A model generated the notes under the pieces. It made no database searches, was not told the DNA's origin, and saw only the letters and a list, made by a program, of their open reading frames with translations. Positions 4,233 through 29,823 of a stretch of DNA of 54,917 nucleotides are shown piece after piece. Origin of the DNA: Patescibacteria group bacterium (GTDB taxonomy: Bacteria; Patescibacteriota; Minisyncoccia; Phycocordibacterales; Phycocordibacteraceae); the NCBI GenBank assembly GCA_038064695.1, contig JBBTSO010000002.1, positions 38,252 to 93,168 of the forward strand. The letters are read 5' to 3'. Position 1 is the first letter of the stretch, and every line of letters starts with the position of its first letter. The position numbers were made by a program, and so were the translations under genes.

Positions 4233-6404
4233 TTACTTTGCGACTTTTACCGCTTCCTCCAGCTTTACCGAAAGCACTTTTGAAACCCCGTCATTCCCCA
4301 TGGTGACGCCGTAGAGCACGCCCGCGCGACTCATCGTCTCGCGGTTGTGTGTTATCAAAATGAGTTGAGATTTTTCAGAAAGTGCTGCAATCATATCGCC
4401 GTAGCGGCGGCTGTTTGCTTCATCCAGCGCCGCGTCGGTTTCATCCAGCACCAAAAATGGAGGCGGGTTGACTGACGACATAGCGAAAATAAGCGCGATG
4501 GAGGTAAGCGCGCGCTCTCCCCCCGAAAGCATCGTCAAACCTTTGATGCGTTTTCGTGGTATGGAGAGAGAAATTTCCAACCCTTCAACAGTTTTTTCCA
4601 TTTCATCCGGAATGCCGTCGTCATCAGCATCTTCAAGGCTACGCACGCGACGCACGGGTTCTTTCACCAACACTAAGGACGCGCTCCCGCCGTCAAACAT
4701 AAGTGAAAAGAACTTTGAAAATTCTGCGTTGATGGCGTGGAGGCCCTGTTTAAACTTGACCGAAAGCTCATCTTCTAGCTGGGCAATAAGCGAACGGAGT
4801 TCAGCACGTGCCGCTTCAAGGTCGGCGAGCTCACGCTCTAAAAATGCCTCGCGCTCAGACGCCTCTTGATACTCTTTCAAAACCTCGGCACCGCCCGCAG
4901 CTCCCATTTCCTCAAGGCGAATTTTAATTTTTTGAAGTTCACGTTTTTCGGTAGCTTGTGCTTCACGTGTTCTCGACTCACTAGATGGTGTTGCAAAACG
5001 CATTGCCTCAACACCTACGAGCACTCCTGCTTCAGAGAGATCGCGCTTGAATTCCTCTTCTTCAGCGTGGAGTCGGGAGAGTGCTGCCTCAGCGTTTTCA
5101 AGTGTGTGGCGTAACTCCCTCTCTTCGCTCGTTAATGCAAAGAGTGCTCGTTCTTGTTCACGCTCACGCGTGCGTGACGAGTCTAATGCTTTTCGTATCT
5201 CCTCGAGCTCGCGCGTGGCACCTTCCTCGTCTTTCGCAAGCTGTTTTTCCTTTGCGCGAAGTTTTTCTTTTTGTTCATTGAGTGTTTGTACCTCTCTTTG
5301 GTCTTTCGCTCCTCCCGCAAGTAACCCTTTAAGACGGCGCACAAGATCCTGCACAAAAGAAATTAGTGTTTCGCGAGTACTCTGGTGTTCCGTAAAGAGT
5401 GCATCGGTTTCCGAGAGTATCTGTTCAAGTGCCTCGCGCGAAACACTGGACTCAGGAACCATGCGTTCAATCGCTTCCATCTGTCCCTCAATGCGTGATG
5501 CCTCAGAAAGCACCGTGCGGCGTAGAGCGCGAAGGTGCTCTATGCGTTCTGAAAGCGCGGCAATGTTTTTGCCTTCACTGGATTCGCTTGAAAGCGCGAG
5601 CGCTTCACGCGCCGACGCCATTGCCCGAGACACTCTCTCCACCCCTTCTTTCGCTTTTGTCTTTTCCTCACCTAAATGTTTTTTTGCCTCGGTGAGGTAC
5701 GCTGACTCGGACGCAAAATACTTTTGAAAACGCACTACCGCTTCGGTGCGTATATCTTCTGCTTTTTGTATTTTTTCTACCTGGCGTTTTAAAAAACGGA
5801 GGTGTGGTGCAACCTCTTTACGGAGCGCGTCAACTTGACGCATATTTTCCTCTGTTTTTTCTAACTTACGGATACTCTCTTCTTTTTTATACTGATACAC
5901 CTTAAGTCCTAGCGCGTCTTCCAACATTTCCCTGCGTTCGCGAGATGGCGCGGAAAGAATTTTATCCGCCTCTCCTTGAGAAATAAGGTGGTGCCCCGTT
6001 TGTCCAATATTGGCACCTGCTAAGAGTTCTAAAATATCTTTAAGACGAACGATGCTCCCATTCAAACGGTACTCATTTATACCGTCGCGGTGCACAATAC
6101 GCTCAATAATTACCTCGTCAAAATCAATATCTAAAAATCGGCTCGCGTTGTTAAAGGTGAGCGCCGCGGACGCGCGGTTAGCCCGTGGTGCACTTGCCGA
6201 ACCATTCCAAATTAAATCTTCACCACGCTTTCCTCGCATAGACTTCATTGACTGTTCTCCCAACACAAAACGAATCCCCTCGGCAACGTTTGATTTACCG
6301 CTTCCATTGGGGCCGACGATAGACACCACGGGGGTATCAAAATCAAACGCCGTCTTTTTTGCAAACGACTTAAAACCAGAGAGTTCCAGACGGACGAGAT
6401 GCAT
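4233..6404 (-). CDS. smc: SMC-like chromosome-partition ATPase, short form (723 aa) with no recognisable hinge
   Basis: The N-terminal head reads LELSGFKSF...GPNGSGKSN. The C-terminal head carries LSGGERALTSIAL and FLVLDETDAALD. Between them lie about 400 aa of E/K/R/A/L-rich coiled coil. Confidence 0.75.
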   Translation of the reverse strand: MHLVRLELSGFKSFAKKTAFDFDTPVVSIVGPNGSGKSNVAEGIRFVLGEQSMKSMRGKRGEDLIWNGSASAPRANRASAALTFNNASRFLDIDFDEVIIERIVHRDGINEYRLNGSIVRLKDILELLAGANIGQTGHHLISQGEADKILSAPSRERREMLEDALGLKVYQYKKEESIRKLEKTEENMRQVDALRKEVAPHLRFLKRQVEKIQKAEDIRTEAVVRFQKYFASESAYLTEAKKHLGEEKTKAKEGVERVSRAMASAREALALSSESSEGKNIAALSERIEHLRALRRTVLSEASRIEGQMEAIERMVPESSVSREALEQILSETDALFTEHQSTRETLISFVQDLVRRLKGLLAGGAKDQREVQTLNEQKEKLRAKEKQLAKDEEGATRELEEIRKALDSSRTREREQERALFALTSEERELRHTLENAEAALSRLHAEEEEFKRDLSEAGVLVGVEAMRFATPSSESRTREAQATEKRELQKIKIRLEEMGAAGGAEVLKEYQEASEREAFLERELADLEAARAELRSLIAQLEDELSVKFKQGLHAINAEFSKFFSLMFDGGSASLVLVKEPVRRVRSLEDADDDGIPDEMEKTVEGLEISLSIPRKRIKGLTMLSGGERALTSIALIFAMSSVNPPPFLVLDETDAALDEANSRRYGDMIAALSEKSQLILITHNRETMSRAGVLYGVTMGNDGVSKVLSVKLEEAVKVAK

Positions 6405-7337: not shown

Positions 7338-8051
7338 CTACGTTTCGCTTTGGAGTGCACGCTCTGCCGCGTTTTGTTCAGCTTCTTGCTTTGAACGACC
7401 CTCCCCTTCAGATACTGCTACGTCACCAACCGAGAGCGACACCACAAAGCGCTTGTCGTGGTCAGGTCCTTCCGAATGAACTACCTCATACCGCGGGGTG
7501 AGTCCGTACTTTGCTTGCGCGTGTTCTTGGAAACTACTTTTTGCGTCTCTCCACGCGCCACTTGAAACTACCTCGTCAGCTTTACTTAAAACGTGAGCAC
7601 GTATAAAGGTATTTGCTCCTTCAAAACCCTGATCCAAGTAGAGCGCCCCGACGACCGCCTCAAATGTATTTGCCAAAATGGTCGCGCGCGCCCGTCCGGT
7701 GTCTTTTGCTTCACCTTTTGAAAGGAGGAGGCAGTCATTCATTCCCAAACTCTCAGCAATGGTGCCGAGCATAGTGGCATTTACCAATGCAGCGCGGTAC
7801 GCGGTTAGATGCCCCTCCGTGACGTTCGGATATTTTTTAAACAGGTAGTCGGTAACGGAGAGTTCCAACACCGCGTCGCCTAGGAATTCTAGACGTTCGT
7901 TATGTTCCTGTTTGTCGGGAGTCACGCCTCCTCCTTGCTCATTCAAGTACGAGCGGTGAGTGAACGCTGTTTTGAGGAGCGACTCGTCATGAAATGACAC
8001 TCCCGCGCGTTTTAAAAATATATCAAAAGCTTTTTGTTTTTCTTCGGTCAT
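7338..8051 (-). CDS. rnc: ribonuclease III
   Basis: RNase III signature ERLEFLGDAVLEL plus a C-terminal dsRBD (GPDHDKRF...GEGRSKQEAEQNAA). Its ATG overlaps the upstream TGA (ATGA at 8048-8051). Confidence 0.92.
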   Translation of the reverse strand: MTEEKQKAFDIFLKRAGVSFHDESLLKTAFTHRSYLNEQGGGVTPDKQEHNERLEFLGDAVLELSVTDYLFKKYPNVTEGHLTAYRAALVNATMLGTIAESLGMNDCLLLSKGEAKDTGRARATILANTFEAVVGALYLDQGFEGANTFIRAHVLSKADEVVSSGAWRDAKSSFQEHAQAKYGLTPRYEVVHSEGPDHDKRFVVSLSVGDVAVSEGEGRSKQEAEQNAAERALQSET

Positions 8052-8926
8052 ATACCTGTGTTTCGTGCAGCGACAATACCTGATTCTATAATACTTCGCA
8101 AGTCTTCATACGTCTCTAGCTCACGAAAATCATCTTCATGAAACCAATTCGCATCAGAAACCGTATGGCCATGCGAAACGCGCAGTGTTTCTTTAGGAGC
8201 GTACGCGAGGAAGTACCCCACGCGGCGCACCACGTTTGCCTCTTTCGGGTCATGTGCCTGGTACTCATGTTCCGCAAGTGGCGCCTGAATGCTCACCGTT
8301 CCCAGTCCAAGTTCTTCGCGCGCGGCGCGAAGCGCCGCGCTGTCGGAGAGTTCACCCTCCTTAAGATGCACTTTGGGCAACGTCCACTTTCCAAAGAGGT
8401 CTTTCACGAGCGCCACGAACACTCCGTCGTCTTCCACCGCGCACACCACCACGCCTGCTAGAAATTCTTTTTCTTTTCGCTTGGGCGCTTCCTCGCGGCG
8501 CGGGCTCCCAAGCTCTTTATACACGCTTCCTAAAACACCGTTGACGAACCTGCTGGACGACTCGCTACCGAATGTTTTGGCAAGCTCTATTGCTTCGTTT
8601 AATGCCACTTTGGGAGGGACTGATTTGGTGTCGCCAAAGAGCAACTCAAAGAGCCCAATGCGAAGAATGTTGCGGTCAATAGGGGCAATTTTGGGGAGTG
8701 GCCATTGAGGCGCCATACGCTCCAGGACTGCGTCTATTTCGTCTCGCTTGGAAGCAATACCGCGAATGAGCGTATCGGTAAAGGGTTGATCTTCGTCATC
8801 GCGACTAATAGACGCGCTATTTTTTTGCAAAGAGGTGGTGATGGCTTCAAAAGAGAGGTCGCCCAGGATGTCTGAGGAAAAGAGCGCCTGGAGCGTGCTG
8901 ATGCGTGAGAGGTGTCGTGAGGCCAT
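8048..8926 (-). CDS. nusB: NusB-like antitermination domain fused to a Nudix hydrolase domain
   Basis: N-terminal ~150 aa are NusB-like (RISTLQALFS..., IDRNILRIGLFELLF, ALNEAIELAKTFG, FVNGVLG). A KR-rich linker follows. The C-terminal domain carries a Nudix box GE-x7-RAAREELGL in which the usual RE reads RA. ATG at 8926 preferred over the TTG at 8938. Confidence 0.75.
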   Translation of the reverse strand: MASRHLSRISTLQALFSSDILGDLSFEAITTSLQKNSASISRDDEDQPFTDTLIRGIASKRDEIDAVLERMAPQWPLPKIAPIDRNILRIGLFELLFGDTKSVPPKVALNEAIELAKTFGSESSSRFVNGVLGSVYKELGSPRREEAPKRKEKEFLAGVVVCAVEDDGVFVALVKDLFGKWTLPKVHLKEGELSDSAALRAAREELGLGTVSIQAPLAEHEYQAHDPKEANVVRRVGYFLAYAPKETLRVSHGHTVSDANWFHEDDFRELETYEDLRSIIESGIVAARNTGI

Positions 8927-9003
8927 ATAAAAGAACAACGTGAAGGTTCTAGCTTTTAGCTTACAGGCTTTAGACTAAAAAAACAACGTAGAAAACGTCA
9001 CTC

Positions 9004-9261
9004 TTATCTAAACGTACGTTTCAAGAGAGCATATCCAAATGAACCCGTGGTTGCAGTAGTGAGAAAAAACAGTGCTGAATGTGATCTTATGTCACCCAAA
9101 GAAGTTTTTTCTCCTCCCGTTAAATCAAGTGGTAAGGGAGCATTACGAGTAAAAAAATGTGTATATTCAAGTTCACCATCCCAAAAGTCGATACCCATTA
9201 ACAACGAGTCGATTGCTGCAACCACGGCAGCTATACCAACTACTGCTGGAAACACTTTCAT
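9004..9261 (-). CDS. hypothetical membrane/secreted protein (85 aa)
   Basis: Hydrophobic N-terminus MKVFPAVVGIAAVVAAIDSLL. Lies 6 nt downstream of rpmF. Confidence 0.45.
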   Translation of the reverse strand: MKVFPAVVGIAAVVAAIDSLLMGIDFWDGELEYTHFFTRNAPLPLDLTGGEKTSLGDIRSHSALFFLTTATTGSFGYALLKRTFR

Positions 9262-16805: not shown

Positions 16806-19800
16806 TTAACGAGCTACATCAAACGCCTGCGCGAGGGCAATCTTAAACCCGGTGAATGGATTTGAGTACGTTGTTTCAAGCGCGCGTGACAAAATTTCAA
16901 TGTACGACGCCATAGTTTCTAGTGACACCATGTGTGATTTTTCAAGAAGCGCAACGTGCTCAGATGAGGTATTTGCTTTGCGAGCGCGGAAGAGTGCGTC
17001 CAAGAGCGACACCGTATCAGTGATAGTCTTTGTTGCTGATACTCCACTTCCTTCAAGGTCACGGACTAAGCTGAAAACCGCATCGCGATTTCCCGTAAGG
17101 AGTGCTGAAACGAGTAACTCATTTACAGAATCTGATACTGCATGAACGGTCGCAGGCGACAGTACCTCTTTGATGTGGGTAAACCCGCGTGCTGGTGCAG
17201 AAACAATCGTTGCGTTCTGCGCGGTAATAATTGCGTGAAGGCGATCACTTGAGAGCAACACCCACCCATCTTCGCGAGGAATAGTACGTACCGCTTCATT
17301 TAAGATATCTCCAAAGACACGAAGTGTTTGCGCGCGGTCGGTTGAAAGCGTAAGTACTGCCGCCCGTGCCTCAGGAGAAAGAAGTACTCCCGCCGCGTTT
17401 GCGCGTGATTCAACTACTTCTGCTAATTCTGGAATCCCATCAACGGCAACTGGCGCCGCAACTGGAACAGGTGCTGGTGGAGTCATCACTGAAGGCGAAA
17501 TTGCACGAGAAGGCGCGTGGGCAAGAGTTGATTGGTGAATCGCTAATGTCGCAACAGGTGCTGGATGAGCGTGCTCAGTTTCGTAGTGTTCAGCGTTGTC
17601 GTATGCTACGTACTCCTGATCCTCTTCGTGACGATCAGCACGCTGTGGAGCAAAGGTAAATACTTTTCCTGCAATAAACTGCATACTCTGTTTACCTAGA
17701 ACCACGTACGAGATTCCAATACTCCATACCACTACCGAGAGCCAGAAGAGCGCCGTCAAAAGTGGTCCTGCTTCAAAGCCAGTGTAGGGAACTTGAGCAA
17801 GCGAAACGTACGCGGCGAGTACCTGACCACCAGGCGCCTTCGTGAGAGAAACAGTTGGCTGGTTTAATCCCCCTCCACAGTTACCCTGACATCCTCCGCC
17901 TCCTTTTTCTACTTCAACAATAGCTGAACAGGTAGTTGTTCCGTATGGTCCTGTAAAGGTTCCCGTGTACGTCGTAGTGTCTGAAGGGTACAGATCATCG
18001 GTCGTTCCTCCTGAAACAGGAGTGGTCGTTCCCACGTGGGTGATGGTTCCGTTGGAAACGTTGGTAGAAGTCCACGATACAGTGATCGATTCCCCTGTCT
18101 TAATTTTTGAATGACTGACCGTGAGTGTACATTGTGGCGCAGGTGTCGTTGGTGTGTAGGTAATAGTTACTGAACATGTTTTTGTTTCTCCTCCAACGCC
18201 CGTAACGGTTCCCGTGTATGTGGTTGTCTGAGTTGGGTTTACGGTATGTGTTCCAACAAAATCATGGACAGGGCCATCGTAGAGCGTAACGCTGTTTAAG
18301 ACTGCCTTGATAATATTGTCCGCGGTGTACGAAATGATGACTGCCTCTCCGGGAGTAGTAATGGTCGTTTTATTAGCAGAGAGAGTACAGTTCGGCGCGT
18401 CAGGTGGTGGAATTTCAATAGTCTTAGTACAGGTGACTGTTTTGTTTGTTGGTCCCGTTCCCGTGAGTTTATACGTATGTGTTCCCACACCAAGCACAGG
18501 ATTAAATGTCTTTGAACCATCAACGGGCAAGTTAACTCCAACCGTCGGAGAAGAGGTGAGCGGAACGACGACGACGCTTGAAACGTTGGTTGTATTCCAC
18601 GTTAGTTTTTCCTTCGTGAGTGTCAACGTACAGATTGGATCACCTGGTGGTGGCGGTAATACCTGCTTGTTTTTAAAGACTACTGCCGCACAAACTGAAC
18701 CTGCGGGTACATTTACTACTCCTCCTGTAGGGGTTACTGAAACCAATTCCCATGCACTCCCTGGGTCAATTTCGGTCACGGTGTGATTTCCTGGTGTGAC
18801 ATTGGTAAATGTTGCATCACCATTTGCGTCGGTGGTAACGGTTTTCGTGCCGCCATCAAGCTTAAAGGTGAACTGCGCGACCGGAGTGAGAATATTACCC
18901 ACGGTATCGTACGTTTCTTTTTTCACTTTTATACATCCAGGTCCTGGTGGGGGCGGAACAATAACGGTCTTTTGACACTGAGCAGAACCCCCCGGACCAG
19001 TAGCGGTCAAAAGGTACGTGTGGGTTCCCACACCAAGTGGCGGAACAAAATTATGCGAACCTGATAGTGGGTACGTACTTCCTGAAGACGCGGTCACGCA
19101 GGTAAAATTGTAACGGAGGTGTGGGTCGTTGCCGGAAGCTGGTACGACGCTCCACGCTGAACCATTCCACAAAGCAATGGTGTTATTTCCAGGACTTGAG
19201 AAGGTATCGGTTTGAAATGTTCCGTTGACACTCCCCGGATACACGATAGAACAAAGGCGGTCCGCAGTTGCTTTATTTGCTTTGAAGCTTGCGTTCCCCA
19301 AAGTTACTCCACCGTAGGTAGTTGCATCAGTTTGAAACGTTGCCGCGTGGTTTGTTTTAAAGGTCCCAAAGTCGCCGCTAAATACCGTGACACCTCCTGC
19401 TGAACCACCCGTGGCACCGGGCACTTGTGGAGAATTGGTCAACGGAACAATGGTAACGGTGTTGGCGTTGTTTGATGTCCACGAAATAGCATCTTTAGTA
19501 AGATCCAATGTACAAATCGGAGGATTGGGCGGCGGAGTAACCGTAACGGTGGTAGAACAGGTTGCGGTCCCTGAGTACGTTCCTTTTACGGTAGCAGTAT
19601 AAGTGATAGTTGACCCTACCTGTACTGACTTCGTTCCTGAAGAAACGATACCGGTTAGATTTTGTGTCGCAAGGACCCCTTTATCTATAGAAATTGATGA
19701 GGCGTAGGTAGTATGCCAATTAAGCGTAACAGGCCCCGCTGAGGCAAGTGTGTTAGGAGTTGCCCATAGTGAACACGTAGGAGTAATAGACCCACCGCCA

Positions 19801-20033
19801 CCGCCGCCCTCGCCACCTCCTCCTCCCCAACCACCGCCACCGCCAATAAATCCAGGACCATCCACGTAATGAGTACACCCCACGCAGTCAACAAACGCCT
19901 CCGCTACATTCGCATTAGGTGTGACAACTGCAGATATCGTGTCAAAAGTAACCCACGCGCCGAAGAGCATCACTCCGAATAGAGCGATTGAGGTGAACGT
20001 TTTATTGACGGTGTTTAGGTTCATGGAATTCAT
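16806..20033 (-). CDS. large multi-domain surface adhesin with an internal sortase-type sorting signal and a C-terminal cytoplasmic domain
   Basis: 1075 aa. It has an N-terminal signal/anchor and a Gly tract (GGGGGWGGGGGEGGGGGG). At least 6 Ig-like modules are each bracketed by Cys (e.g. PICTL...C..T[IV]). One module is Cna-B/SpaA-like (CIKVKKETYD...TVTEID...FKNKQ). VPYTG (17778..17792) is followed by TM segment LLTALFWLSVVVWSIGISYVVLG, then K, then about 295 further aa. Confidence 0.7.
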   Translation of the reverse strand: MNSMNLNTVNKTFTSIALFGVMLFGAWVTFDTISAVVTPNANVAEAFVDCVGCTHYVDGPGFIGGGGGWGGGGGEGGGGGGSITPTCSLWATPNTLASAGPVTLNWHTTYASSISIDKGVLATQNLTGIVSSGTKSVQVGSTITYTATVKGTYSGTATCSTTVTVTPPPNPPICTLDLTKDAISWTSNNANTVTIVPLTNSPQVPGATGGSAGGVTVFSGDFGTFKTNHAATFQTDATTYGGVTLGNASFKANKATADRLCSIVYPGSVNGTFQTDTFSSPGNNTIALWNGSAWSVVPASGNDPHLRYNFTCVTASSGSTYPLSGSHNFVPPLGVGTHTYLLTATGPGGSAQCQKTVIVPPPPGPGCIKVKKETYDTVGNILTPVAQFTFKLDGGTKTVTTDANGDATFTNVTPGNHTVTEIDPGSAWELVSVTPTGGVVNVPAGSVCAAVVFKNKQVLPPPPGDPICTLTLTKEKLTWNTTNVSSVVVVPLTSSPTVGVNLPVDGSKTFNPVLGVGTHTYKLTGTGPTNKTVTCTKTIEIPPPDAPNCTLSANKTTITTPGEAVIISYTADNIIKAVLNSVTLYDGPVHDFVGTHTVNPTQTTTYTGTVTGVGGETKTCSVTITYTPTTPAPQCTLTVSHSKIKTGESITVSWTSTNVSNGTITHVGTTTPVSGGTTDDLYPSDTTTYTGTFTGPYGTTTCSAIVEVEKGGGGCQGNCGGGLNQPTVSLTKAPGGQVLAAYVSLAQVPYTGFEAGPLLTALFWLSVVVWSIGISYVVLGKQSMQFIAGKVFTFAPQRADRHEEDQEYVAYDNAEHYETEHAHPAPVATLAIHQSTLAHAPSRAISPSVMTPPAPVPVAAPVAVDGIPELAEVVESRANAAGVLLSPEARAAVLTLSTDRAQTLRVFGDILNEAVRTIPREDGWVLLSSDRLHAIITAQNATIVSAPARGFTHIKEVLSPATVHAVSDSVNELLVSALLTGNRDAVFSLVRDLEGSGVSATKTITDTVSLLDALFRARKANTSSEHVALLEKSHMVSLETMASYIEILSRALETTYSNPFTGFKIALAQAFDVAR

Positions 20034-23404: not shown

Positions 23405-25498
23405 TTAAATATCCAAATTCGCGGTCTTGGCGTTACTTTGAATAAACGTTTTGCGTGCAGGGACGTCCGTTCCCATCAAAATATCAAACACACGATCAGC
23501 ATCTTGTGCGTCGGCAATGGATACCTGTTTCAACACACGTCGTTCAGGATCCATCGTTGTTTCCCACAATTCCTCAGGGTTCATTTCTCCAAGACCTTTG
23601 TATCGCTGAGTATTTATTTTTGCGGGCTTTTTTACTTTTGATTTCGCTTCCTCTTCTTCTGGTTCTTCTTCAGAATTTTCCTCTGCGGGAAGTTCATCGT
23701 CTTCTGCGGTGGCAAGCAGCGCTTCGCCACCAAAACCCTTCATGATTGTTGCTTTATCAGCGTCGGTGTACGCGTAGGCGATTTCTTTTCCTTTGGTGAT
23801 TTTATAGAGCGGCGGTTGCGCAATGTATAAAAACCCGCCTTCAATGACCGGCTTAAAGTAGCGATAAAACAGCGTCAAAAGAAGCGTACGAATGTGCGCG
23901 CCGTCAACGTCGGCGTCGGTAGCAATAATAATTTTATGGTAGCGGAGCTTGCTGACATCAAACAAATCGCCGATAGCGGTGCCGAGCGCAACCACGAGCG
24001 CGCGAATTTCGTTTGAAGCAAGCATACGATCTAAGCGTGCACGCTCTACGTTCAAAATTTTTCCACGAAGGGGCAAAATCGCTTGGGTACGACGATCTCT
24101 TCCCTGCTTGCTTGACCCACCTGCGGAATCTCCCTCCACAATAAAGAGTTCTGACTCTGACGCATCACGTGTCTGACAGTCTGCTAGTTTTCCTGGCAAC
24201 GTCATTCCCTCCAGTGCCCCTTTACGAAGTACTGAGTCTTTTGCTGCTTTTGCGGCCTTTCGTGCTTTGAGTGCCAACAAACTCTTTGAACAGATTGATT
24301 TTGCTTCTTCAGGATGCGTTTCAAGGAAGTCGGCAAAGGTTTCTGAAAAAATACTCTCTACCGCGCCACGCGCTTCAACCGACCCGAGTTTTGCTTTCGT
24401 CTGTCCTTCAAATTGGATTTCGGGCATCTTAACCGAAATCACCGCCGTGATGCCTTCCAATACGTCGTCTCCCGTAAAATTTTCCTCGGAGTCCTTCACG
24501 ATGCCGTTTTTACGGGCGTAGGTGTTAAGCGTTCTCGTCAATGCTGTTTTAAAACCGGTAACGTGCGTTCCCCCCTCAGGGTTATAAATGTTGTTTGCAA
24601 ACGCCGTTAAACGACCTGAAATATCGTCCACGTACTGGAGCGCAATTTCTACCGAAACACCATCCATTTCTTTCTCGGCATAAAAAATACTCTTGTGAAT
24701 TGGTTTTTGAAAACGGTTATTGAACGCGACGAGCGACTGCAACCCTTGTTCAAAATAAAATGTTTGTGACGGCACGTGGAGCGCGAGGTCGCGTACGTAA
24801 ATGGTGTCTTCCACGTCAACATTGCCTGTATACTCTCTCGCATCAATGACTCCAATTCTGGTTTTCTTTACTAAGTACGCTTGCTGGCGTAAGTGTGCCA
24901 CAATTCTATTCCATTCAAATTTGATTTCTTTAAATATCTCAATGTCGGGTTCAAAGGTGATGATAGATCCTTGAAAATCGGTGGAGCGAATTTTTTTTAC
25001 CTTAGCGGTCGGCTTTCCCCTTTTATACTCTTGTACATAAAATCCACCGTCTTTGTGAACTTCTGCTTTGGTGTGTATTGAAAGCGCGTTTACCACGGAC
25101 ACACCCACGCCGTGCAAACCACCTGACACTTTGTATCCGCTTCCGTCGCCACCAAATTTTCCGCCCGCGTGGAGCGTGGTCATGATAGTTTCAAGCGCTG
25201 ACACTTTCGTCTGTTTATGAATATCAACGGGAATACCGCGCCCGTTATCAACAACGCGTATGCGATTGCCTGGAAGAAGCGCCACTTCAATATCGTTTGC
25301 AAAGCCACCCATCGCTTCGTCGCGTGAGTTATCAAATACTTCCCAAATAAGGTGGTGGAGCCCGTCAGGACCCGTGGTCCCGATATACATACCGGGACGC
25401 TTCCGGACTGGATCCAGCCCTTCAAGCACCGTAATTTGGTCAGCTCCGTATGATGTTTTTTTAGATTTTGAGTCCTCTTGAGCGGGCTTTTTGGGCAT
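23405..25498 (-). CDS. gyrB: DNA gyrase subunit B
   Basis: 697 aa. Motifs GLHHLIWEVFDNSRDEA, LHGVG, EGDSAGGS, PLRGKILNVE and IATDADVDGAHI, with an acidic insertion near the C-terminus. An extended -10 TGcTATAAT (25526..25534) is followed by a 27-nt leader with AAGGGGAG. Confidence 0.95.
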   Translation of the reverse strand: MPKKPAQEDSKSKKTSYGADQITVLEGLDPVRKRPGMYIGTTGPDGLHHLIWEVFDNSRDEAMGGFANDIEVALLPGNRIRVVDNGRGIPVDIHKQTKVSALETIMTTLHAGGKFGGDGSGYKVSGGLHGVGVSVVNALSIHTKAEVHKDGGFYVQEYKRGKPTAKVKKIRSTDFQGSIITFEPDIEIFKEIKFEWNRIVAHLRQQAYLVKKTRIGVIDAREYTGNVDVEDTIYVRDLALHVPSQTFYFEQGLQSLVAFNNRFQKPIHKSIFYAEKEMDGVSVEIALQYVDDISGRLTAFANNIYNPEGGTHVTGFKTALTRTLNTYARKNGIVKDSEENFTGDDVLEGITAVISVKMPEIQFEGQTKAKLGSVEARGAVESIFSETFADFLETHPEEAKSICSKSLLALKARKAAKAAKDSVLRKGALEGMTLPGKLADCQTRDASESELFIVEGDSAGGSSKQGRDRRTQAILPLRGKILNVERARLDRMLASNEIRALVVALGTAIGDLFDVSKLRYHKIIIATDADVDGAHIRTLLLTLFYRYFKPVIEGGFLYIAQPPLYKITKGKEIAYAYTDADKATIMKGFGGEALLATAEDDELPAEENSEEEPEEEEAKSKVKKPAKINTQRYKGLGEMNPEELWETTMDPERRVLKQVSIADAQDADRVFDILMGTDVPARKTFIQSNAKTANLDI

Positions 25499-25613
25499 AA
25501 AAAATAGAGCCTCGTGGCTCCCCTTATTATAGCATATTTATCGTGTCAAAATATGCGGGAAAGGTTATAAAAACCTTGTATTACAAGGTAATATTGCATA
25601 CACTGAGAGAATT

Positions 25614-26768
25614 ATGGATATACGTATCGGGCGTGAAGAAGAAGATCGGCTGCTCAAGGTTTTGGACGAACGGACTGATACCGAATCGGCGCGAATGAAG
25701 CGGTACTTGTCTATGCCCGACCTCTCACGAACACCAGGTAGCCCCCTTTCGGAAATTGTAAAACGAGTAAAAGCAATCCCTACACTGAAGAATTTTGACG
25801 ATATTAACATTCCTGAGGTAGTTCCTGCCTCAGTGTCATTTAACCTCTTTGACTTTGCGCCTGATCACCCTGCTCGTAGCAAGTCAGATACGTACTACGT
25901 GGACGACTCTAACATTCTTCGCACTCACGACACGGTCTTTTGGTACTACTACCTCAACCATCCTGAGATAAAAGAACGCATAGCACGAAAGGAAGCACTC
26001 GGCGCGCTCTGTTACGGAAAAGTGTTCCGTAAAGACGAAATTGATAGCCGCCATATGAATGTTTTTCACCAGCTTGGTGGGTGGTATCTTACCCCTCAAT
26101 CAACTCCGCTTGGGCCTGATGATTTAAAACAGGTGCTCGGCGACATTGTACGAGCCGTGTTTGGTCCAGAATCTATCTTCAGAATCAACACTGACAACTT
26201 CCCCTACACCGACCCCTCATTTGAAGTTGAAGTGAACGTGAAGGGCACTGCGGCTGAAGGCCCCGCGCGCGGTGAGTGGTTAGAAATCCTCGGAAGCGGA
26301 ATGCCAAAACAATCAGTATTAGAAAAAATGGGTCTCTCAGGGTATCACGGCTGGGCATTTGGATTCGGACTGGAACGTCTCGCCATTATTTCTATGGCAC
26401 TCCCCGATATCCGCCTCCTGTGGTCAGACGATGAGCGCGTAAAAAAACAACTTGTGTTAGGAAACACGTACACTGAAGTGAGTAAATACCCAGCGGTAGT
26501 GCGCGATATCTCATTTGTCGTACCAAAAACCTTTTCACCAAACGACTACTTTGACTTGGTGCGTGACATCGCTGATGAACTTGTTGATGAGGTAGTTCTC
26601 ATTGATAGATACGAGAACGACGAGAAATTTGGTGCTGATAAGGTCAGCTACGCGTACCGCATCACCTATCGAAGTTCGGAAAAAACACTTGAAGGGAGCG
26701 AGGTAGACCTACTCCACAAAAAACTTGAACAAAAAACCAACTCGTTGTTTGGAGCAACTGTTCGTTAA
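25614..26768 (+). CDS. pheS: phenylalanyl-tRNA synthetase, alpha-type catalytic core fused to a C-terminal FDX-ACB (ferredoxin-fold anticodon-binding) domain
   Basis: 384 aa. Class II motifs DHPARSKSDTYYV, FRKDEIDSRHMNVFHQL and GWAFGFGLERLAI. The C-terminal ~95 aa (KYPAVVRDISFVVP...YAYRITYRSSEKTLEGSEV) are FDX-ACB-like. No pheT follows. Confidence 0.85.
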   Translation: MDIRIGREEEDRLLKVLDERTDTESARMKRYLSMPDLSRTPGSPLSEIVKRVKAIPTLKNFDDINIPEVVPASVSFNLFDFAPDHPARSKSDTYYVDDSNILRTHDTVFWYYYLNHPEIKERIARKEALGALCYGKVFRKDEIDSRHMNVFHQLGGWYLTPQSTPLGPDDLKQVLGDIVRAVFGPESIFRINTDNFPYTDPSFEVEVNVKGTAAEGPARGEWLEILGSGMPKQSVLEKMGLSGYHGWAFGFGLERLAIISMALPDIRLLWSDDERVKKQLVLGNTYTEVSKYPAVVRDISFVVPKTFSPNDYFDLVRDIADELVDEVVLIDRYENDEKFGADKVSYAYRITYRSSEKTLEGSEVDLLHKKLEQKTNSLFGATVR

Positions 26769-27622
26769 AACCCGGTCACTTCGTAGTAAGAAGTTTCATC
26801 CGCCACAGTGAGCACACCATCAATAACCTCAAACCGAGCGTTAGGTGTCGTAAAAATGGGAATGGTGAGCCGTGGCGCACGGACATCCGCTTCGGTAAAA
26901 TACACTCCTGACTCGCGCGTGCGGTACAGCACTCCCCCTGCAAAAAACTGAGCATCGGTGACCGTCTCACTCCCCTTCTCTAAAGCAAACACCTGGGCAC
27001 ACGAGGAAGGGCGAATACAAAACGAGCTTGGTGGTTGGCTATCGCGCTCAAAACGCATAAATAAATTACCCTCCTCAACGACGAGCGCTACCCCTCCCCT
27101 TACATCAGCGGGTGGCTCTGATGCCAGCTCAGAAGAAATGACGGGTGTAGTCGTAACTAAAAAAATAGACTCTATGGTGTCATACCGTTCACGGGTCACC
27201 ACCACAACCGTAGAGGTACCGACTTCTTCTTGGGGAGATTTTGTCACCACCTCCCTGACTGAAAGCGGTTGCGTGATGGCGAGCACCGAAACGTCAGACA
27301 CGAGTTGTGATTCAACAAAGAGCGTTTTAGACCATGGATAGTACCCTTCTGCCACCGCTTGGACCACATAGGAACCTGGCGCAAGGTTATCAAAAAAGAA
27401 TGATTTTGAAAAAAGGTTAGAGCGTTCTAACTCCTCTCCGTTAAGTGAGAGTGTAAAACCCGAAACCGGAACTGCTATATAAATACCACCCGTTGAAACA
27501 AGACCGAGTCCTTTGATGCGATACCCTGACGCGTAGAGCGTCACTATGGGTAAAATGATTAAAAACAAAACAAAAAAAAGCGCAGAGTAAAAACGGCGGG
27601 TTTTGAGAGAAAGCGGTTCCAT
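26765..27622 (-). CDS. membrane-anchored PEGA-domain-like protein
   Basis: N-terminal TM segment (ALFFVLFLIILPIVTLYA), then a PEGA-like stretch (FTLSLNGEELERSN...LAPGSYVVQAVAEGYYPW). It overlaps the 3' end of pheS convergently by 4 nt. Confidence 0.55.
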   Translation of the reverse strand: MEPLSLKTRRFYSALFFVLFLIILPIVTLYASGYRIKGLGLVSTGGIYIAVPVSGFTLSLNGEELERSNLFSKSFFFDNLAPGSYVVQAVAEGYYPWSKTLFVESQLVSDVSVLAITQPLSVREVVTKSPQEEVGTSTVVVVTRERYDTIESIFLVTTTPVISSELASEPPADVRGGVALVVEEGNLFMRFERDSQPPSSFCIRPSSCAQVFALEKGSETVTDAQFFAGGVLYRTRESGVYFTEADVRAPRLTIPIFTTPNARFEVIDGVLTVADETSYYEVTGF

Positions 27623-27856: not shown

Positions 27857-29413
27857 TTAAAGTGTTATTTTAATACTATCCTCTCTCGACTTCGGAGTGA
27901 CCCAGAAACCAAGATATTTTTTTGTAGCTAAACGCACTTGCGCTTCAAGTCCAGGAACAGAACTGAAGAAAACCATCGTGAGAGGAACCAAAATCCACTG
28001 AAATAGCATTGCAATATTTGAAACGGTGCGTTTTTGTTCCGGGCGTGGAGGAATGAGTTGAATACCATACATGGCGAGAAAAACTAACCCGAACATTGCC
28101 GCGGTTAAAAACCATGACGATACTATAGGGAGGTTGTAAGAAAGCACCGTGGCGTTAAAGGCCACTCCACCGATGACGAGCGGGAGCCATCCGACCGCAA
28201 AGAGAATGAGTGGTTGTACCGCCAAGGACCACGCTCCCTCTATGTACACGAACAACATGTGGAGTTTTTTATGGTACGGAATACGAGGATTTTTGATGAA
28301 ATGAAAGAGAAGATACGGCACATTTTCAGCACTTCCATACATCCACCTGCGATGCTGCCGATAGAGGTTGGCGACCGTTTCAATAAAATTTTTCCCCACG
28401 TTCGCGTCCATGGACACCGGGTAGGAAATCGGAACCACGCGGTAATTTCCGTCGTAATGCATAAAGAGATTGAAAAAAATGCGTGAATCTTCATTCACCA
28501 TGTTTTTCTGCCAATACCCTGCTTCAACGAGTGCAGTAAGCGAAACGGCGTGCGAAGAAAACGTTGAGAGTCGTTCAGGCCGCTCCTGTTGGATCATTTG
28601 CCAAAACGTGGATGAGTACGCCAACACGCGCGAAAGCATAGGGGACGACCATATGTTGTTGTTATACAGTGGCACTGGTTGAAATGACGCATGGAGCGGA
28701 TCTTCTGTGGTTAAGAAATACCACGTCAAACATGAAAAATAGCCAGGGTACACCACGGTATCGGAATCAAACGCCGACACGAGCACGCGGTCATGGGGAA
28801 TGTGACGCGTATCAATAGCGAGACGCGTTGCCTCGCGACAGGCATACGCAATATTGGAACCTTTCCCTCGCATTTCACCAGAAATCCCGTCGGGGTGCAC
28901 GGTAACCACCACATCTAAAAACGTTTCTTTGTACTCTTTCTGTATACGAAGCGCAATGGCGCGTGCCGCCTCCCCGACATGAGCTTCTGTGCCCAACACA
29001 ATAATAATTTGTTTGGTGTTGAAGTGCGCTTTTGCTATTGCTTCAACACTCTCCACCAACACCTCGTACGGTTCACGAAAGAAAGGCAGCATCACCATGT
29101 GGATGACGTCTTCGTGGTGAAGGTTTTTTAGTCGCTCATTCCAATCAAGCACGAGGTGGTGGCGCAGTCGTTTAAAATTATGTCGAAGGTGAATCGTTAA
29201 AAAAATAGTTTTAAAAAGCCAGTATGCCGCAAAGGCAATCGTAAAGTATGCCACCACTGCCGGCGCCACAAATGAGAGCACTACGAACAGTACGAGCGTT
29301 CCTACCGAAAGAAACGCAGGAACAGTTTCAAAAAACCTGTACAACGCACGGTCACGCCCCACCAGGTCACTAGCGCGACCAACGTGGAGGTATGGTGATG
29401 GTTCATCCTTCAT
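27857..29413 (-). CDS. integral-membrane processive family-2 glycosyltransferase (cellulose/chitin/hyaluronan-synthase-like)
   Basis: 518 aa with N- and C-terminal TM bundles. Carries the D,D,D,QxxRW signature: FDSDTV, NEDSRIF, YRQHRRWMYG. Confidence 0.75.
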   Translation of the reverse strand: MKDEPSPYLHVGRASDLVGRDRALYRFFETVPAFLSVGTLVLFVVLSFVAPAVVAYFTIAFAAYWLFKTIFLTIHLRHNFKRLRHHLVLDWNERLKNLHHEDVIHMVMLPFFREPYEVLVESVEAIAKAHFNTKQIIIVLGTEAHVGEAARAIALRIQKEYKETFLDVVVTVHPDGISGEMRGKGSNIAYACREATRLAIDTRHIPHDRVLVSAFDSDTVVYPGYFSCLTWYFLTTEDPLHASFQPVPLYNNNIWSSPMLSRVLAYSSTFWQMIQQERPERLSTFSSHAVSLTALVEAGYWQKNMVNEDSRIFFNLFMHYDGNYRVVPISYPVSMDANVGKNFIETVANLYRQHRRWMYGSAENVPYLLFHFIKNPRIPYHKKLHMLFVYIEGAWSLAVQPLILFAVGWLPLVIGGVAFNATVLSYNLPIVSSWFLTAAMFGLVFLAMYGIQLIPPRPEQKRTVSNIAMLFQWILVPLTMVFFSSVPGLEAQVRLATKKYLGFWVTPKSREDSIKITL

Positions 29414-29420
29414 AGCGAGA

Positions 29421-29492
29421 GCCGCCTCCCAGATTCGAACTGGGGACCTTCACTTTACAAAAGTGTTGCTCTACCAACTGAGCTAAGGCGGC
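29421..29492 (-). tRNA. tRNA-Thr (anticodon UGU), 72 nt, CCA not encoded
   Basis: Hand-folded cloverleaf: acceptor GCCGCCT/AGGCGGC; D arm GCTC-AGTTGGTA-GAGC; anticodon arm ACACT-TTTGTAA-AGTGA (one A-A mismatch); variable loop AGGTC; T arm CCCAG-TTCGAAT-CTGGG. Confidence 0.92.
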
Positions 29493-29746
29493 GTTATTCT
29501 AATATATCCTTCTTGGATAATCTTTTCAATATAATCTTTACGTTTCAGCTTCTTCAAGCACCTTTCAACATATCTCGCATCATCTATGGCGCTATACTCC
29601 TGAGAAAAAATAAGAGTGAGTTTTCCCATTCGTTTAGTTGAATGAGTAAAACCTCCTTGGTGATGCTTTACGCGGGAGTTCAGGTTACCAGTACTACCAA
29701 TATAGTATCGGCCAAGTGAACTTTTTAGAATGTAGACATAAGGCAT
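29483..29746 (-). CDS. small GIY-YIG nuclease-domain protein (87 aa)
   Basis: MPYVYILKSSLGRYYIGSTGNLNSRVKHH... is a GIY-YIG motif. AT-rich: 33% GC hand-counted in 29521-29580. Its last three codons and the TAG stop lie within tRNA positions 1-10. Confidence 0.8.
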   Translation of the reverse strand: MPYVYILKSSLGRYYIGSTGNLNSRVKHHQGGFTHSTKRMGKLTLIFSQEYSAIDDARYVERCLKKLKRKDYIEKIIQEGYIRITPP

Positions 29747-29823
29747 ATCTGAGTCCCGACGCAAGGTCGGAATCCCGACTTCAACATTTGTTGAACGTCG
29801 GGACTAAGGCGGCGTATTTCTAA
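29483..29823 (-). mobile_element. candidate GIY-YIG insertion unit bounded by 20-nt imperfect direct repeats of the tRNA-Thr 5' junction
   Basis: Repeats CTAAGGCGGCGTTATTCTAA (29483..29502) and CTAAGGCGGCGTATTTCTAA (29804..29823) match at 18 of 20 positions and lie 321 bp apart. Each covers tRNA nt 1-10 plus 10 nt of upstream flank. Confidence 0.4.

What the first reader, a model, noticed from the sequence alone, without database searches (positions are those of the whole stretch)
25614..26768. PheRS built like the mitochondrial monomeric enzyme: alpha catalytic core plus C-terminal FDX-ACB domain, with no adjacent pheT
Bacterial PheRS is an (alpha-beta)2 enzyme encoded by adjacent pheS-pheT. 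The ferredoxin-fold anticodon-binding (FDX-ACB, B8) domain belongs to the beta subunit. This 384-aa ORF has the class II catalytic core (DHPARSKSDTYYV; FRKDEIDSRHMNVFHQL; GWAFGFGLERLAI..PDIRLLWSDDERV). It continues directly into a ~95-aa domain, KYPAVVRDISFVVPKTFSPNDYFDLVRDIADELVDEVVLIDRYEN...YAYRITYRSSEKTLEGSEV. From my recollection, this closely parallels the C-terminal FDX-ACB domain of mitochondrial PheRS (FARS2: ...KYPAVINDISFW...DFYDLVR...CYRITYR...). It also lacks the long N-terminal coiled-coil arm of bacterial PheS. The next gene is convergent, so no pheT follows. A free-standing bacterial lineage with a mitochondrial-type single-chain PheRS would bear on genome minimisation and on the origin of the organellar enzyme.
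Basis: partly seen in the sequence, partly recalled or inferred. Interest (0 to 1): 0.7.

Follow-up and report, generated by a model that had tools for sequence, protein, structure and literature searches.

The report
Mitochondrial-type single-chain PheRS replacing bacterial pheST
This groundwater bacterium of the Candidate Phyla Radiation (CPR; Parcubacteria/Kaiserbacteria group) makes Phe-tRNA with a one-chain enzyme built like the mitochondrial one, and the gene sits in the chromosomal slot where close relatives keep the usual two-gene pheS-pheT pair.

Summary
ORF 25614-26768(+) encodes 384 aa: a PheS-type class II catalytic core (PF01409, E 8e-48) fused to a C-terminal FDX-ACB anticodon-binding domain (PF03147, E 2e-21). 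Its best solved relative is human mitochondrial PheRS over the full length (E 4e-55), and an AlphaFold model (pLDDT 88.5) matches that structure best.

The gene is not an oddity of one bin. At least 402 GTDB species of the Parcubacteria/Paceibacteria group carry a close relative.

The main new result is positional. In the window and in 63 of 81 related loci the gene lies next to gyrB. In 86 loci from sister genomes (GyrB up to 88% identical) the same slot holds canonical pheS-pheT, with orthologous genes on both sides. No locus has both types, no pheT remnant is left in the single-chain loci, and the 80+80 assemblies do not overlap.

Phe-pocket and class II motif residues are all kept. They are not kept in the plasmid paralogue SrmL.

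In a neighbour-joining (NJ) tree of the core, all single-chain enzymes form one clade apart from canonical PheS (100% bootstrap). That clade holds the CPR, eukaryotic organellar, viral and SrmL proteins.

Absence of pheT from the whole genome was not shown directly. I found no paper that describes this.

The parts
25614..26768 (+). Gene for the single-chain (mitochondrial-type) phenylalanyl-tRNA synthetase, 384 aa plus stop codon
   Evidence: ORF list. Pfam PF01409 + PF03147. Best PDB relative is human mitochondrial PheRS, E 4e-55. Homologues of 383-390 aa align from residue 1.
25614..25790 (+). Short N-terminal helical region (residues 1-59), a reduced counterpart of the PheS N-terminal arm
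   Evidence: AF2 model has helices 8-19, 23-33 and 44-53 with block-mean pLDDT 85-94. The relative in L075 aligns to the TIGR00468 pheS profile from position 32.
25740..26450 (+). Class II PheS-type catalytic core (residues 43-279)
   Evidence: PF01409, E 7.9e-48. Conserved residues are tabulated.
26019..26081 (+). Motif 2 region KVFRKDEIDSRHMNVFHQLGG (R139, H147, F151-H152-Q153)
   Evidence: These five residues are conserved in all 14 CPR single-chain sequences; R139, H147, F151 and Q153 are also conserved in the canonical PheS sampled, while position 152 varies there.
26199..26219 (+). Phe-ring pocket strand FPYTDPS. The second aromatic is Tyr (FPF becomes FPY) in the whole CPR single-chain clade.
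   Evidence: Column counts: F196 14/14, Y198 14/14, T199 14/14.
26244..26270 (+). Clade-specific 9-residue loop insertion GTAAEGPAR (residues 211-219)
   Evidence: Nearly all of the stretch is invariant in the 35 closest homologues. It is absent from L075, P0121, and the viral, eukaryotic and canonical sequences.
26349..26387 (+). Motif 3 GWAFGFGLERLAI (A248 corresponds to E. coli A294; motif-3 Arg is R255)
   Evidence: A248, G250, G252 and R255 are conserved in all groups.
26481..26765 (+). C-terminal FDX-ACB (B8-like) anticodon-binding domain, residues 290-384
   Evidence: PF03147 1-94/94, E 2.1e-21. Matches the C-terminal domain of bacterial PheT: TIGR00472 positions 698-798 and PDB 2rhs_B residues 703-800.
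25499..25613 (.). 115-bp divergent intergenic region between gyrB and the PheRS gene. It holds no pheS/pheT remnant.
   Evidence: Sequence read; GAGAG lies 5 nt upstream of the ATG. No PheT-body HSP in any single-chain locus. The promoter scan was uninformative.
23405..25498 (-). gyrB, the conserved flank of the PheRS slot
   Evidence: Adjacent to the single-chain gene in 63/81 loci and to pheS-pheT in 75/86 loci. 68-72% identical to the GyrB of canonical-type loci.
26765..27622 (-). Conserved 285-aa flank gene (function unknown), convergent with the PheRS gene and overlapping its stop codon
   Evidence: Orthologues (38-40% identity) lie directly upstream of pheS in canonical loci L222, L204 and L215. 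No Pfam hit on record.
27857..29413 (-). Family-2 glycosyltransferase, second conserved flank gene
   Evidence: PF13632/PF13641. 51-64% identical orthologues at the same relative position in L263, L222, L204 and L215.

Best explanation
The ORF encodes the organism's housekeeping phenylalanyl-tRNA synthetase, and it is of the single-chain, mitochondrial (PheRS-M) type. One polypeptide carries two parts. The first is the PheS-like class II active site, which activates Phe with ATP and transfers it to tRNA-Phe. The second is a C-terminal ferredoxin-fold domain, homologous to domain B8 of the bacterial beta subunit, which reads the GAA anticodon. All other beta-subunit modules are missing, including the B3/B4 editing site, so mischarged Tyr-tRNA-Phe cannot be cleared by the synthetase itself. 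By analogy with the human mitochondrial enzyme it should act as a monomer whose anticodon-binding domain swings open on tRNA binding. In this lineage (Parcubacteria/Paceibacteria, Kaiserbacteria-like) the gene has displaced the ancestral pheS-pheT operon at the same chromosomal slot upstream of gyrB. Shown here: architecture, fold, conserved catalytic residues, clade membership, wide distribution, and locus-for-locus replacement. Inferred: Phe specificity, monomeric state, lack of editing, and that no pheT exists elsewhere in this genome.
For: Architecture PF01409 + PF03147. Human mitochondrial PheRS is the best solved relative over the full length, E 4e-55, against 3.5e-28 for the best bacterial alpha chain, which matches the core only. 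The AF2 model (pLDDT 88.5) has seven human mitochondrial PheRS entries as its top Foldseek hits. The best TM-score, 0.71, is to the tRNA-bound open state 3tup_A. R139, H147, F151, H152, Q153, F196, T199, E204, E224, A248, G250 and R255 are conserved. More than 6000 homologous clusters exist, and the top 120 are 72-100% identical and about 384 aa long. At least 402 GTDB species carry a close relative. gyrB adjacency holds in 63/81 single-chain loci and 75/86 canonical loci, with 0 loci holding both types. The window is collinear with canonical loci L222, L215 and L204 on both sides of the slot. The same holds for three close pairs with GyrB about 80-88% identical. No PheT-body remnant is present in the 81 single-chain loci. 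The 80 and 80 assemblies do not overlap. In the core NJ tree the single-chain clade has 100% bootstrap, and CPR canonical PheS groups with ordinary bacterial PheS.
Against: No whole genome could be scanned, so a pheT elsewhere in this organism is not formally excluded. The protein is below the curated cut-off of TIGR00469 (199 against 258). The second pocket aromatic is Tyr, not Phe; archaeal/eukaryotic cytosolic PheRS also has Tyr there, but that is from my own knowledge and was not tested here. The FDX-ACB tree is unresolved. The trees are neighbour-joining only. tRNA-Phe is not in the window, so identity elements could not be checked.
Confidence: 0.8

Rival explanations
1. It is an accessory PheS-like paralogue with another substrate, like the 'mystery ligase' SrmL, and the real PheRS (pheS-pheT) lies elsewhere in the genome.
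For: The best NCBIfam hit by score is NF051887 SrmL, at 205 bits. SrmL has the same two-domain architecture and falls inside the single-chain superclade (100% bootstrap). The whole genome was not seen.
Against: The score is well below the SrmL cut-off of 300, whereas a true SrmL scores 524. SrmL has F151P, F196H and E204Q at pocket positions that this protein keeps. The gene occupies the pheS-pheT slot and is never found with pheS-pheT. It is present and well conserved in hundreds of reduced genomes.
Confidence: 0.07
2. The single-chain gene arose locally and repeatedly: a deletion inside the resident pheS-pheT operon fused the pheS core to the 3' end of pheT. Its likeness to the mitochondrial enzyme would then be convergent.
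For: It lies at exactly the pheS-pheT locus. Sister genomes already have trimmed PheS (about 240-267 aa) and PheT lacking B2 (about 595 aa).
Against: The core is only about 30% identical to the PheS of neighbouring lineages, but it groups with the mitochondrial and viral enzymes at 100% bootstrap. All CPR single-chain proteins form one tight clade (99%). In most loci the gene is inverted relative to pheS-pheT, which a simple internal deletion does not produce.
Confidence: 0.05
3. It is a recent transfer of a eukaryotic mitochondrial PheRS gene into one bacterium, or eukaryotic contamination of the bin.
For: The closest characterised relatives are eukaryotic.
Against: The gene is embedded among bacterial housekeeping genes: gyrB, dnaE, thrS, smc and an RNB-domain ribonuclease (RNase R/II family). 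It is present in at least 402 GTDB species with conserved synteny. The CPR clade branches outside the eukaryote+virus clade, at 98% bootstrap without SrmL in the tree and 63-72% with it.
Confidence: 0.03

Closest known systems
Mitochondrial phenylalanyl-tRNA synthetase (human FARS2, PDB 3CMQ/3TUP; yeast/fission-yeast MSF1; TIGR00469; 'PheRS-M' in AARS Online, PMC11580382)
   Same: One chain with a PheS-type core plus a C-terminal FDX-ACB domain and no editing module. The C-terminal half is 42% identical to human. It is the best sequence and fold match. Both belong to the same clade in the core tree.
   Different: The host is a bacterium, and the gene is chromosomal, next to gyrB. The score is below the TIGR00469 cut-off. 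The protein is more compact: 384 aa, with no counterpart of human residues about 153-189. It has its own short N-terminal helices, FPY instead of FPF, and a 9-aa loop insertion. It branches as sister to the eukaryote+virus group, not within it.
Canonical bacterial (alpha-beta)2 PheRS, pheS-pheT (TIGR00468/TIGR00472), including the reduced versions in sister Paceibacteria (e.g. locus L098)
   Same: Same catalytic motifs, and the same anticodon-binding fold as domain B8 of PheT. It occupies the same chromosomal slot.
   Different: There is no beta subunit: no B1, B3/B4 editing, B5 or B6/7 modules. The core is about 30% identical. pheS scores 139 against a cut-off of 237.
SrmL, 'PheS-related mystery ligase' (NCBIfam NF051887; e.g. 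WP_005882727.1 on Glutamicibacter nicotianae plasmid pGnB68)
   Same: Same two-domain single-chain architecture, and part of the same superclade.
   Different: SrmL is an accessory, plasmid-borne gene. Its pocket positions are altered (F151P, F196H, E204Q). The window protein scores 205 against a cut-off of 300.
Single-chain PheRS of about 340-370 aa on huge-phage-like and giant-virus contigs (IMG/VR; ENA contig of 340,874 bp)
   Same: Same architecture. These proteins pass the TIGR00469 cut-off and are 31-40% identical to the window protein.
   Different: They are carried by viruses, they lack the N-terminal region, and they group with the eukaryotic enzymes and not with the CPR clade.

Membership tests
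Mitochondrial-type single-chain PheRS (PheRS-M / TIGR00469) | PheS-type class II catalytic core | tested here: met
   PF01409, E 7.9e-48, residues 43-279. Motif 2/3 and pocket residues are conserved.
Mitochondrial-type single-chain PheRS (PheRS-M / TIGR00469) | FDX-ACB anticodon-binding domain fused to the C-terminus of the same chain | tested here: met
   PF03147, full profile, E 2.1e-21, residues 290-384.
Mitochondrial-type single-chain PheRS (PheRS-M / TIGR00469) | No beta-subunit modules (B1-B7) and no editing domain | tested here: met
   Only two Pfam domains in 384 aa. E. coli PheT gives no HSP in the window, and in related single-chain loci it matches only the C-terminal (B8) region of this gene. 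No PheT-body HSP in the locus.
Mitochondrial-type single-chain PheRS (PheRS-M / TIGR00469) | Score at or above the curated cut-off of TIGR00469 | tested here: not met
   199.1 bits against 258.35. The 58%-identical relative P0121 passes with 264.3. The model was built from eukaryotic sequences only (from my own knowledge of the TIGRFAM description).
Mitochondrial-type single-chain PheRS (PheRS-M / TIGR00469) | Groups with mitochondrial PheRS to the exclusion of canonical PheS | tested here: met
   NJ tree, 200 core columns, 100 of 100 bootstraps. Also 100 of 100 with SrmL included.
Mitochondrial-type single-chain PheRS (PheRS-M / TIGR00469) | Three-dimensional structure like 3CMQ/3TUP | tested here: met
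   Foldseek E 1.8e-33 to 5mgh/3cmq. TM-score 0.71 and rmsd 5.0 to 3tup_A. Model pLDDT 88.5.
Mitochondrial-type single-chain PheRS (PheRS-M / TIGR00469) | Active as a monomer; charges tRNA-Phe with Phe | not testable with these tools
   Needs enzyme assays and SEC-MALS or native mass spectrometry.
Mitochondrial-type single-chain PheRS (PheRS-M / TIGR00469) | It is the only PheRS of its compartment or cell | tested here: inconclusive
   Indirect evidence only: it replaces pheS-pheT at the orthologous slot, with 0/167 loci holding both, disjoint assemblies and no remnants. No whole genome could be read.
Canonical bacterial PheS (TIGR00468) | Score at or above the curated cut-off | tested here: not met
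   138.9 bits against 237.45. A canonical Paceibacteria PheS (L098) scores 302.9.
Canonical bacterial PheS (TIGR00468) | Partner pheT gene adjacent | tested here: not met
   The downstream gene is a convergent 285-aa ORF and the upstream gene is gyrB.
SrmL (NF051887) | Score at or above the curated cut-off | tested here: not met
   205.4 bits against 300. A true member scores 524.
SrmL (NF051887) | Altered amino-acid pocket relative to PheRS | tested here: not met
   SrmL has F151P, F196H and E204Q; the window protein keeps F151, F196 and E204.

The most novel reading that the evidence does not exclude
The alpha-core + B8 fusion may not be a eukaryotic invention. It may be an old, mobile one-gene PheRS cassette that circulates among CPR bacteria, a few other bacteria (an Oligoflexia MAG; plasmid-borne SrmL derivatives), huge phages and giant viruses, and eukaryotic organelles. 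On this reading, mitochondrial PheRS descends from such a prokaryotic or viral cassette. Within Paceibacteria the cassette and the pheS-pheT operon would behave like two alternative 'alleles' of one locus, swapped repeatedly through the conserved flanks or sorted from an ancestor that had both.
Probability: 0.3. Interest if true: 0.8.

Novelty: new member of a known kind. Interest (0 to 1): 0.62.

Why it matters
PheRS is the textbook exception among aminoacyl-tRNA synthetases. Every free-living cell is taught to need the large (alpha-beta)2 enzyme with its editing site, and the one-chain form is treated as an organellar speciality.

Here hundreds of bacterial species appear to live on the one-chain form alone, so several things follow:
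- It gives a natural experiment on how far the translation apparatus can be reduced, and on life without PheRS editing of Tyr/meta-Tyr.
- It supplies prokaryotic and viral sister groups for the old question of where mitochondrial PheRS came from.
- It shows an unusually clean case of non-orthologous displacement, in which two solutions alternate at one locus among close relatives.
- On the practical side, pheS and pheT are, to my recollection, used as single-copy marker genes for genome completeness and phylogeny. These lineages would then be scored as lacking both.

Tried and rejected
- **Literature.** Nine full-text searches were run on monomeric or mitochondrial-type PheRS in bacteria, CPR, Patescibacteria, Parcubacteria, SrmL and huge phages. 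None returned a paper describing a bacterial single-chain PheRS. The nearest only notes that many CPR PheRS-beta lack domain B2 (PMC5370408).
- **Whole-genome pheT search.** This is not possible with these tools. The long source contigs are served only as windows of up to 10 kb on each side of a match.
- **CPR PheT seed.** Searching with the B2-like ORF of L075 returned only stand-alone ~140-aa proteins. A degenerate DNA pattern for the PheT motif DL[IV]EE[IV][AG]R..GY then supplied CPR pheS-pheT loci.
- **Placing the ~350-aa proteins in prokaryote genomes.** They turned out to be viral.
- **Single-protein scan of IMG/VR with P0140.** It found nothing; the alignment was needed.
- **FDX-ACB domain tree.** Unresolved, with only 100 columns.
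- **GyrB against PheRS distance correlation.** r = 0.55-0.62. This does not separate differential loss from recombination.
- **Promoter scan of the intergenic region.** Uninformative.
- **GenBank phages.** One distant hit on a 634,780-bp uncultured phage. Most of the others are short records matching only the PheS core, and look to me like host pheS fragments.

Full report
**1.

ORF 25614..26768(+) encodes 384 aa. Pfam finds the PheS-type class II core over residues 43-279 (PF01409, E 7.9e-48). It also finds a complete FDX-ACB domain over residues 290-384 (PF03147, E 2.1e-21).

Against all PDB sequences, the best matches are the human mitochondrial PheRS entries. They score E about 4e-55 and cover query residues 65-381 in two stretches. 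Bacterial alpha chains match only the core (best E 3.5e-28). Bacterial beta chains match only the last 100 residues (E 5e-5).

An AlphaFold2 model built on 35 homologues has mean pLDDT 88.5. Foldseek ranks seven human mitochondrial PheRS entries first (E 1.8e-33). The highest TM-score, 0.71, is to the tRNA-bound open form 3tup_A; the closed forms give 0.55.

NCBIfam places the protein between families and below every cut-off:
- SrmL: 205 against 300
- pheS_mito: 199 against 258
- pheS: 139 against 237

**2. The setting is an ordinary bacterial chromosome**

The window carries an RNB-domain ribonuclease (RNase R/II family), SMC, DnaE, ThrRS, GyrB, glycosyltransferases and large surface proteins, but no PheT. 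It holds one tRNA, tRNA-Thr.

The exact protein occurs in Hainich groundwater assemblies (ENA ERZ1292625 'Hain_H41'). Close relatives are 72-89% identical and about 384 aa long. They fill the top 120 of more than 6000 hits.

In the GTDB species set, 402 stretches encode a relative. The best 80 are labelled Kaiserbacteria, Colwellbacteria, Zambryskibacteria, Nomurabacteria, Paceibacterota or Parcubacteria. In NCBI taxonomy these belong to the Patescibacteria/Parcubacteria group.

**3. Is it the cell's PheRS or an extra paralogue?**

A whole genome could not be read, so I used the locus.

gyrB lies beside the single-chain gene in the window and in most related loci. A degenerate DNA pattern for a PheT motif, scanned over GTDB, returned a sample of 120 genomes. 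Several of these are CPR genomes in which canonical pheS-pheT is followed directly by gyrB:
- L098, 'Parcubacteria' GFS_4738
- L168
- L144
- L181
- L187, Kerfeldbacteria

Searching with the L098 PheT gave 167 GTDB species with a close canonical PheT. Many are also labelled Kaiserbacteria, Adlerbacteria or Paceibacterota.

I then typed all 167 CPR loci by tblastn:

| Type | Loci | gyrB within the locus |
|---|---|---|
| Single-chain | 81 | 63 |
| Canonical pheS-pheT | 86 | 75 |
| Both | 0 | – |

The 80 + 80 assemblies do not overlap.

The window itself is collinear with canonical loci L222, L215 and L204 on both sides of the slot. On one side lie the 285-aa gene (38-40% identical), the GT2 gene (58-64%) and, beyond the tRNA-Thr gene, a 208-aa gene (45-53%). 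On the other side lie gyrB (68-70%) and two further genes. Between the flanks, the relatives have pheS-pheT on the flank strand. The window has the single gene, inverted.

Three closer pairs show the same pattern: L068/L271, L013/L263 and L074/L235. GyrB identity of these pairs is about 80-88% over the trimmed alignment.

No fragment of the PheT body survives in any single-chain locus.

I read this as non-orthologous displacement of pheS-pheT. It is the main argument that the gene is the housekeeping PheRS.

**4. Catalytic competence**

In an alignment of 104 sequences, the window protein keeps the following residues:
- the motif 2 arginine (R139)
- H147 and F151-H152-Q153
- the pocket strand F196-P-Y198-T199
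- E204 and E224
- A248, the position of E. coli A294
- G250, G252 and the motif 3 arginine (R255)

The only systematic change is Tyr for the second Phe of 'FPF'. It is fixed in all 14 CPR single-chain sequences. From my own knowledge, cytosolic archaeal/eukaryotic PheRS also has Tyr there, so this need not alter specificity.

A genuine SrmL behaves differently. WP_005882727.1, on a Glutamicibacter plasmid, scores 524 bits. It has F151P, F196H and E204Q.

The window's subclade also carries a 9-residue loop insertion, GTAAEGPAR.

**5. Relationships**

I built a neighbour-joining tree on 200 core columns with 100 bootstraps.
- All single-chain proteins form one clade apart from canonical PheS (100%).
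- Inside that clade, CPR single-chain plus four 'other' metagenome proteins group at 98%.
- Eukaryotic plus viral proteins also group at 98%.
- Canonical PheS of CPR genomes groups with ordinary bacterial PheS.

Adding SrmL keeps the superclade at 100%, but support for the inner split drops to 63-72%. The 100-column FDX-ACB tree is unresolved.

The eukaryotic labels were confirmed for Branchiostoma, Salpingoeca, a chytrid and fission-yeast Msf1. Among the 'other' proteins, one is from an Oligoflexia MAG. Another lies next to an ATP synthase operon on contigs whose standard translation does not reproduce the protein, which suggests a recoded CPR lineage.

The single-chain core is therefore not a recent derivative of the neighbouring pheS. 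It is also not nested within eukaryotes in this rough tree.

**6. How the two types are distributed**

On a GyrB NJ tree of 120 loci the two types are interleaved, with 13 parsimony changes. Thirteen genomes have their nearest GyrB neighbour in the other class.

Two readings fit:
- The two solutions were exchanged repeatedly through the conserved flanks.
- An ancestor had both, and lineages lost one or the other.

A single-gene NJ tree cannot decide between these, and the distance correlations are only moderate.

**7. Mechanism proposed**

The protein would be a monomeric class II enzyme. The core activates Phe and transfers it to A76 of tRNA-Phe. The hinged FDX-ACB domain binds the anticodon, as in 3TUP. 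There is no B3/B4 site, hence no post-transfer editing.

Architecture, fold and residue conservation are shown here. Oligomeric state, specificity and lack of editing are inferred from the mitochondrial enzyme.

**8. Novelty**

I found no paper describing a bacterial or CPR single-chain PheRS. Database pipelines simply call these proteins 'PheRS alpha chain' or 'hypothetical'.

The enzyme type is known, so I classify this as a new member of a known kind. Three things appear new:
- its role as a bacterial housekeeping enzyme
- its breadth of distribution
- the locus-for-locus alternation with pheS-pheT

Noticed in passing
L075:5513-5935(+) and L082 about 5504-5932(+), directly upstream of the single-chain PheRS gene (L075:5980-7128), followed by gyrB: A stand-alone 140-aa tRNA_bind protein (PF01588). 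It is 41% identical to domain B2 of a Kerfeldbacteria PheT and sits in operon position with the single-chain PheRS. More than 750 such ~140-aa proteins exist in metagenomes, several named Doudnabacteria, and JGI calls them 'PheRS beta chain'. It may be a trans-acting tRNA-binding helper or a relic of PheT. None was found in the window.
   Followed up: partly
L363 (ENA contig of 340,874 bp, gene at 8001-9047); IMG/VR loci L365-L407: Single-chain PheRS of about 340-370 aa that pass the TIGR00469 cut-off are encoded on virus-like contigs. One is a 340-kb contig of small unknown genes with SNF2, PhageMetallopep and PcfJ. Forty-three are IMG/VR contigs, many of 200-540 kb (huge-phage size), and five are labelled GVMAG (giant-virus MAGs). 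In the core tree they mix with eukaryotic mitochondrial PheRS.
   Followed up: partly
L098:2654-3457 (PheS, 267 aa) and L098:3460-5247 (PheT, 595 aa); likewise L204-L282: The canonical PheRS of sister Paceibacteria is itself trimmed. PheS lacks the N-terminal coiled-coil arm, and PheT goes from B1 straight to B3/B4 without the B2 OB-fold. Kerfeldbacteria (L187) keep a full 795-aa PheT.
   Followed up: partly
L413:8001-9371 and L414:154-1524 (protein P0130, 456 aa): A 38%-identical single-chain PheRS lies next to an ATP synthase operon. The look-up reports that the gene does not translate to the protein under the standard table, which suggests a lineage with a reassigned stop codon (for example code 25).
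   Followed up: no
L415:6061-7179 (Glutamicibacter nicotianae plasmid pGnB68, WP_005882727.1): A true SrmL 'mystery ligase' (524 bits) is annotated 'hypothetical protein' and lies about 480 bp downstream of a Cmx/CmrA chloramphenicol efflux gene. Its Phe-pocket positions are changed (F151P, F196H, E204Q in window numbering). A second full-length relative lies on an Azotobacter chroococcum plasmid (hit H19).
   Followed up: partly
window 26244-26270: A nine-residue insertion, GTAAEGPAR, lies in a loop of the catalytic core. Nearly all of it is invariant in the 35 closest homologues, and it is absent from more distant CPR single-chain enzymes and from all other groups. Model confidence is lower there (block mean about 70).
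   Followed up: partly
window 29419-29492(-) and 29483-29764(-): tRNA-Thr(TGT) overlaps by about 10 nt the start of a 93-aa ORF. The N-terminus of that ORF (YVYILKS...GRYYIGST) looks like a GIY-YIG nuclease motif. This is my reading only and was not scanned.
   Followed up: no
window 16806-20033(-) and 49273-54849(-): Two very large predicted surface proteins: 1075 aa with a SpaA-like prealbumin fold, and 1858 aa with a bacterial Ig-like domain. A 426-aa Laminin_G_3/ConA-like lectin protein lies next to the second. I would expect such proteins in an episymbiotic cell, but they were not examined.
   Followed up: no
whole model m7ab0f5226f3f (window 25614-26765): Without any tRNA, AlphaFold places the anticodon-binding domain closer to the open, tRNA-bound conformation of human mitochondrial PheRS (TM 0.71, rmsd 5.0 to 3tup_A) than to the closed apo form (TM 0.55, rmsd about 19).
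   Followed up: no
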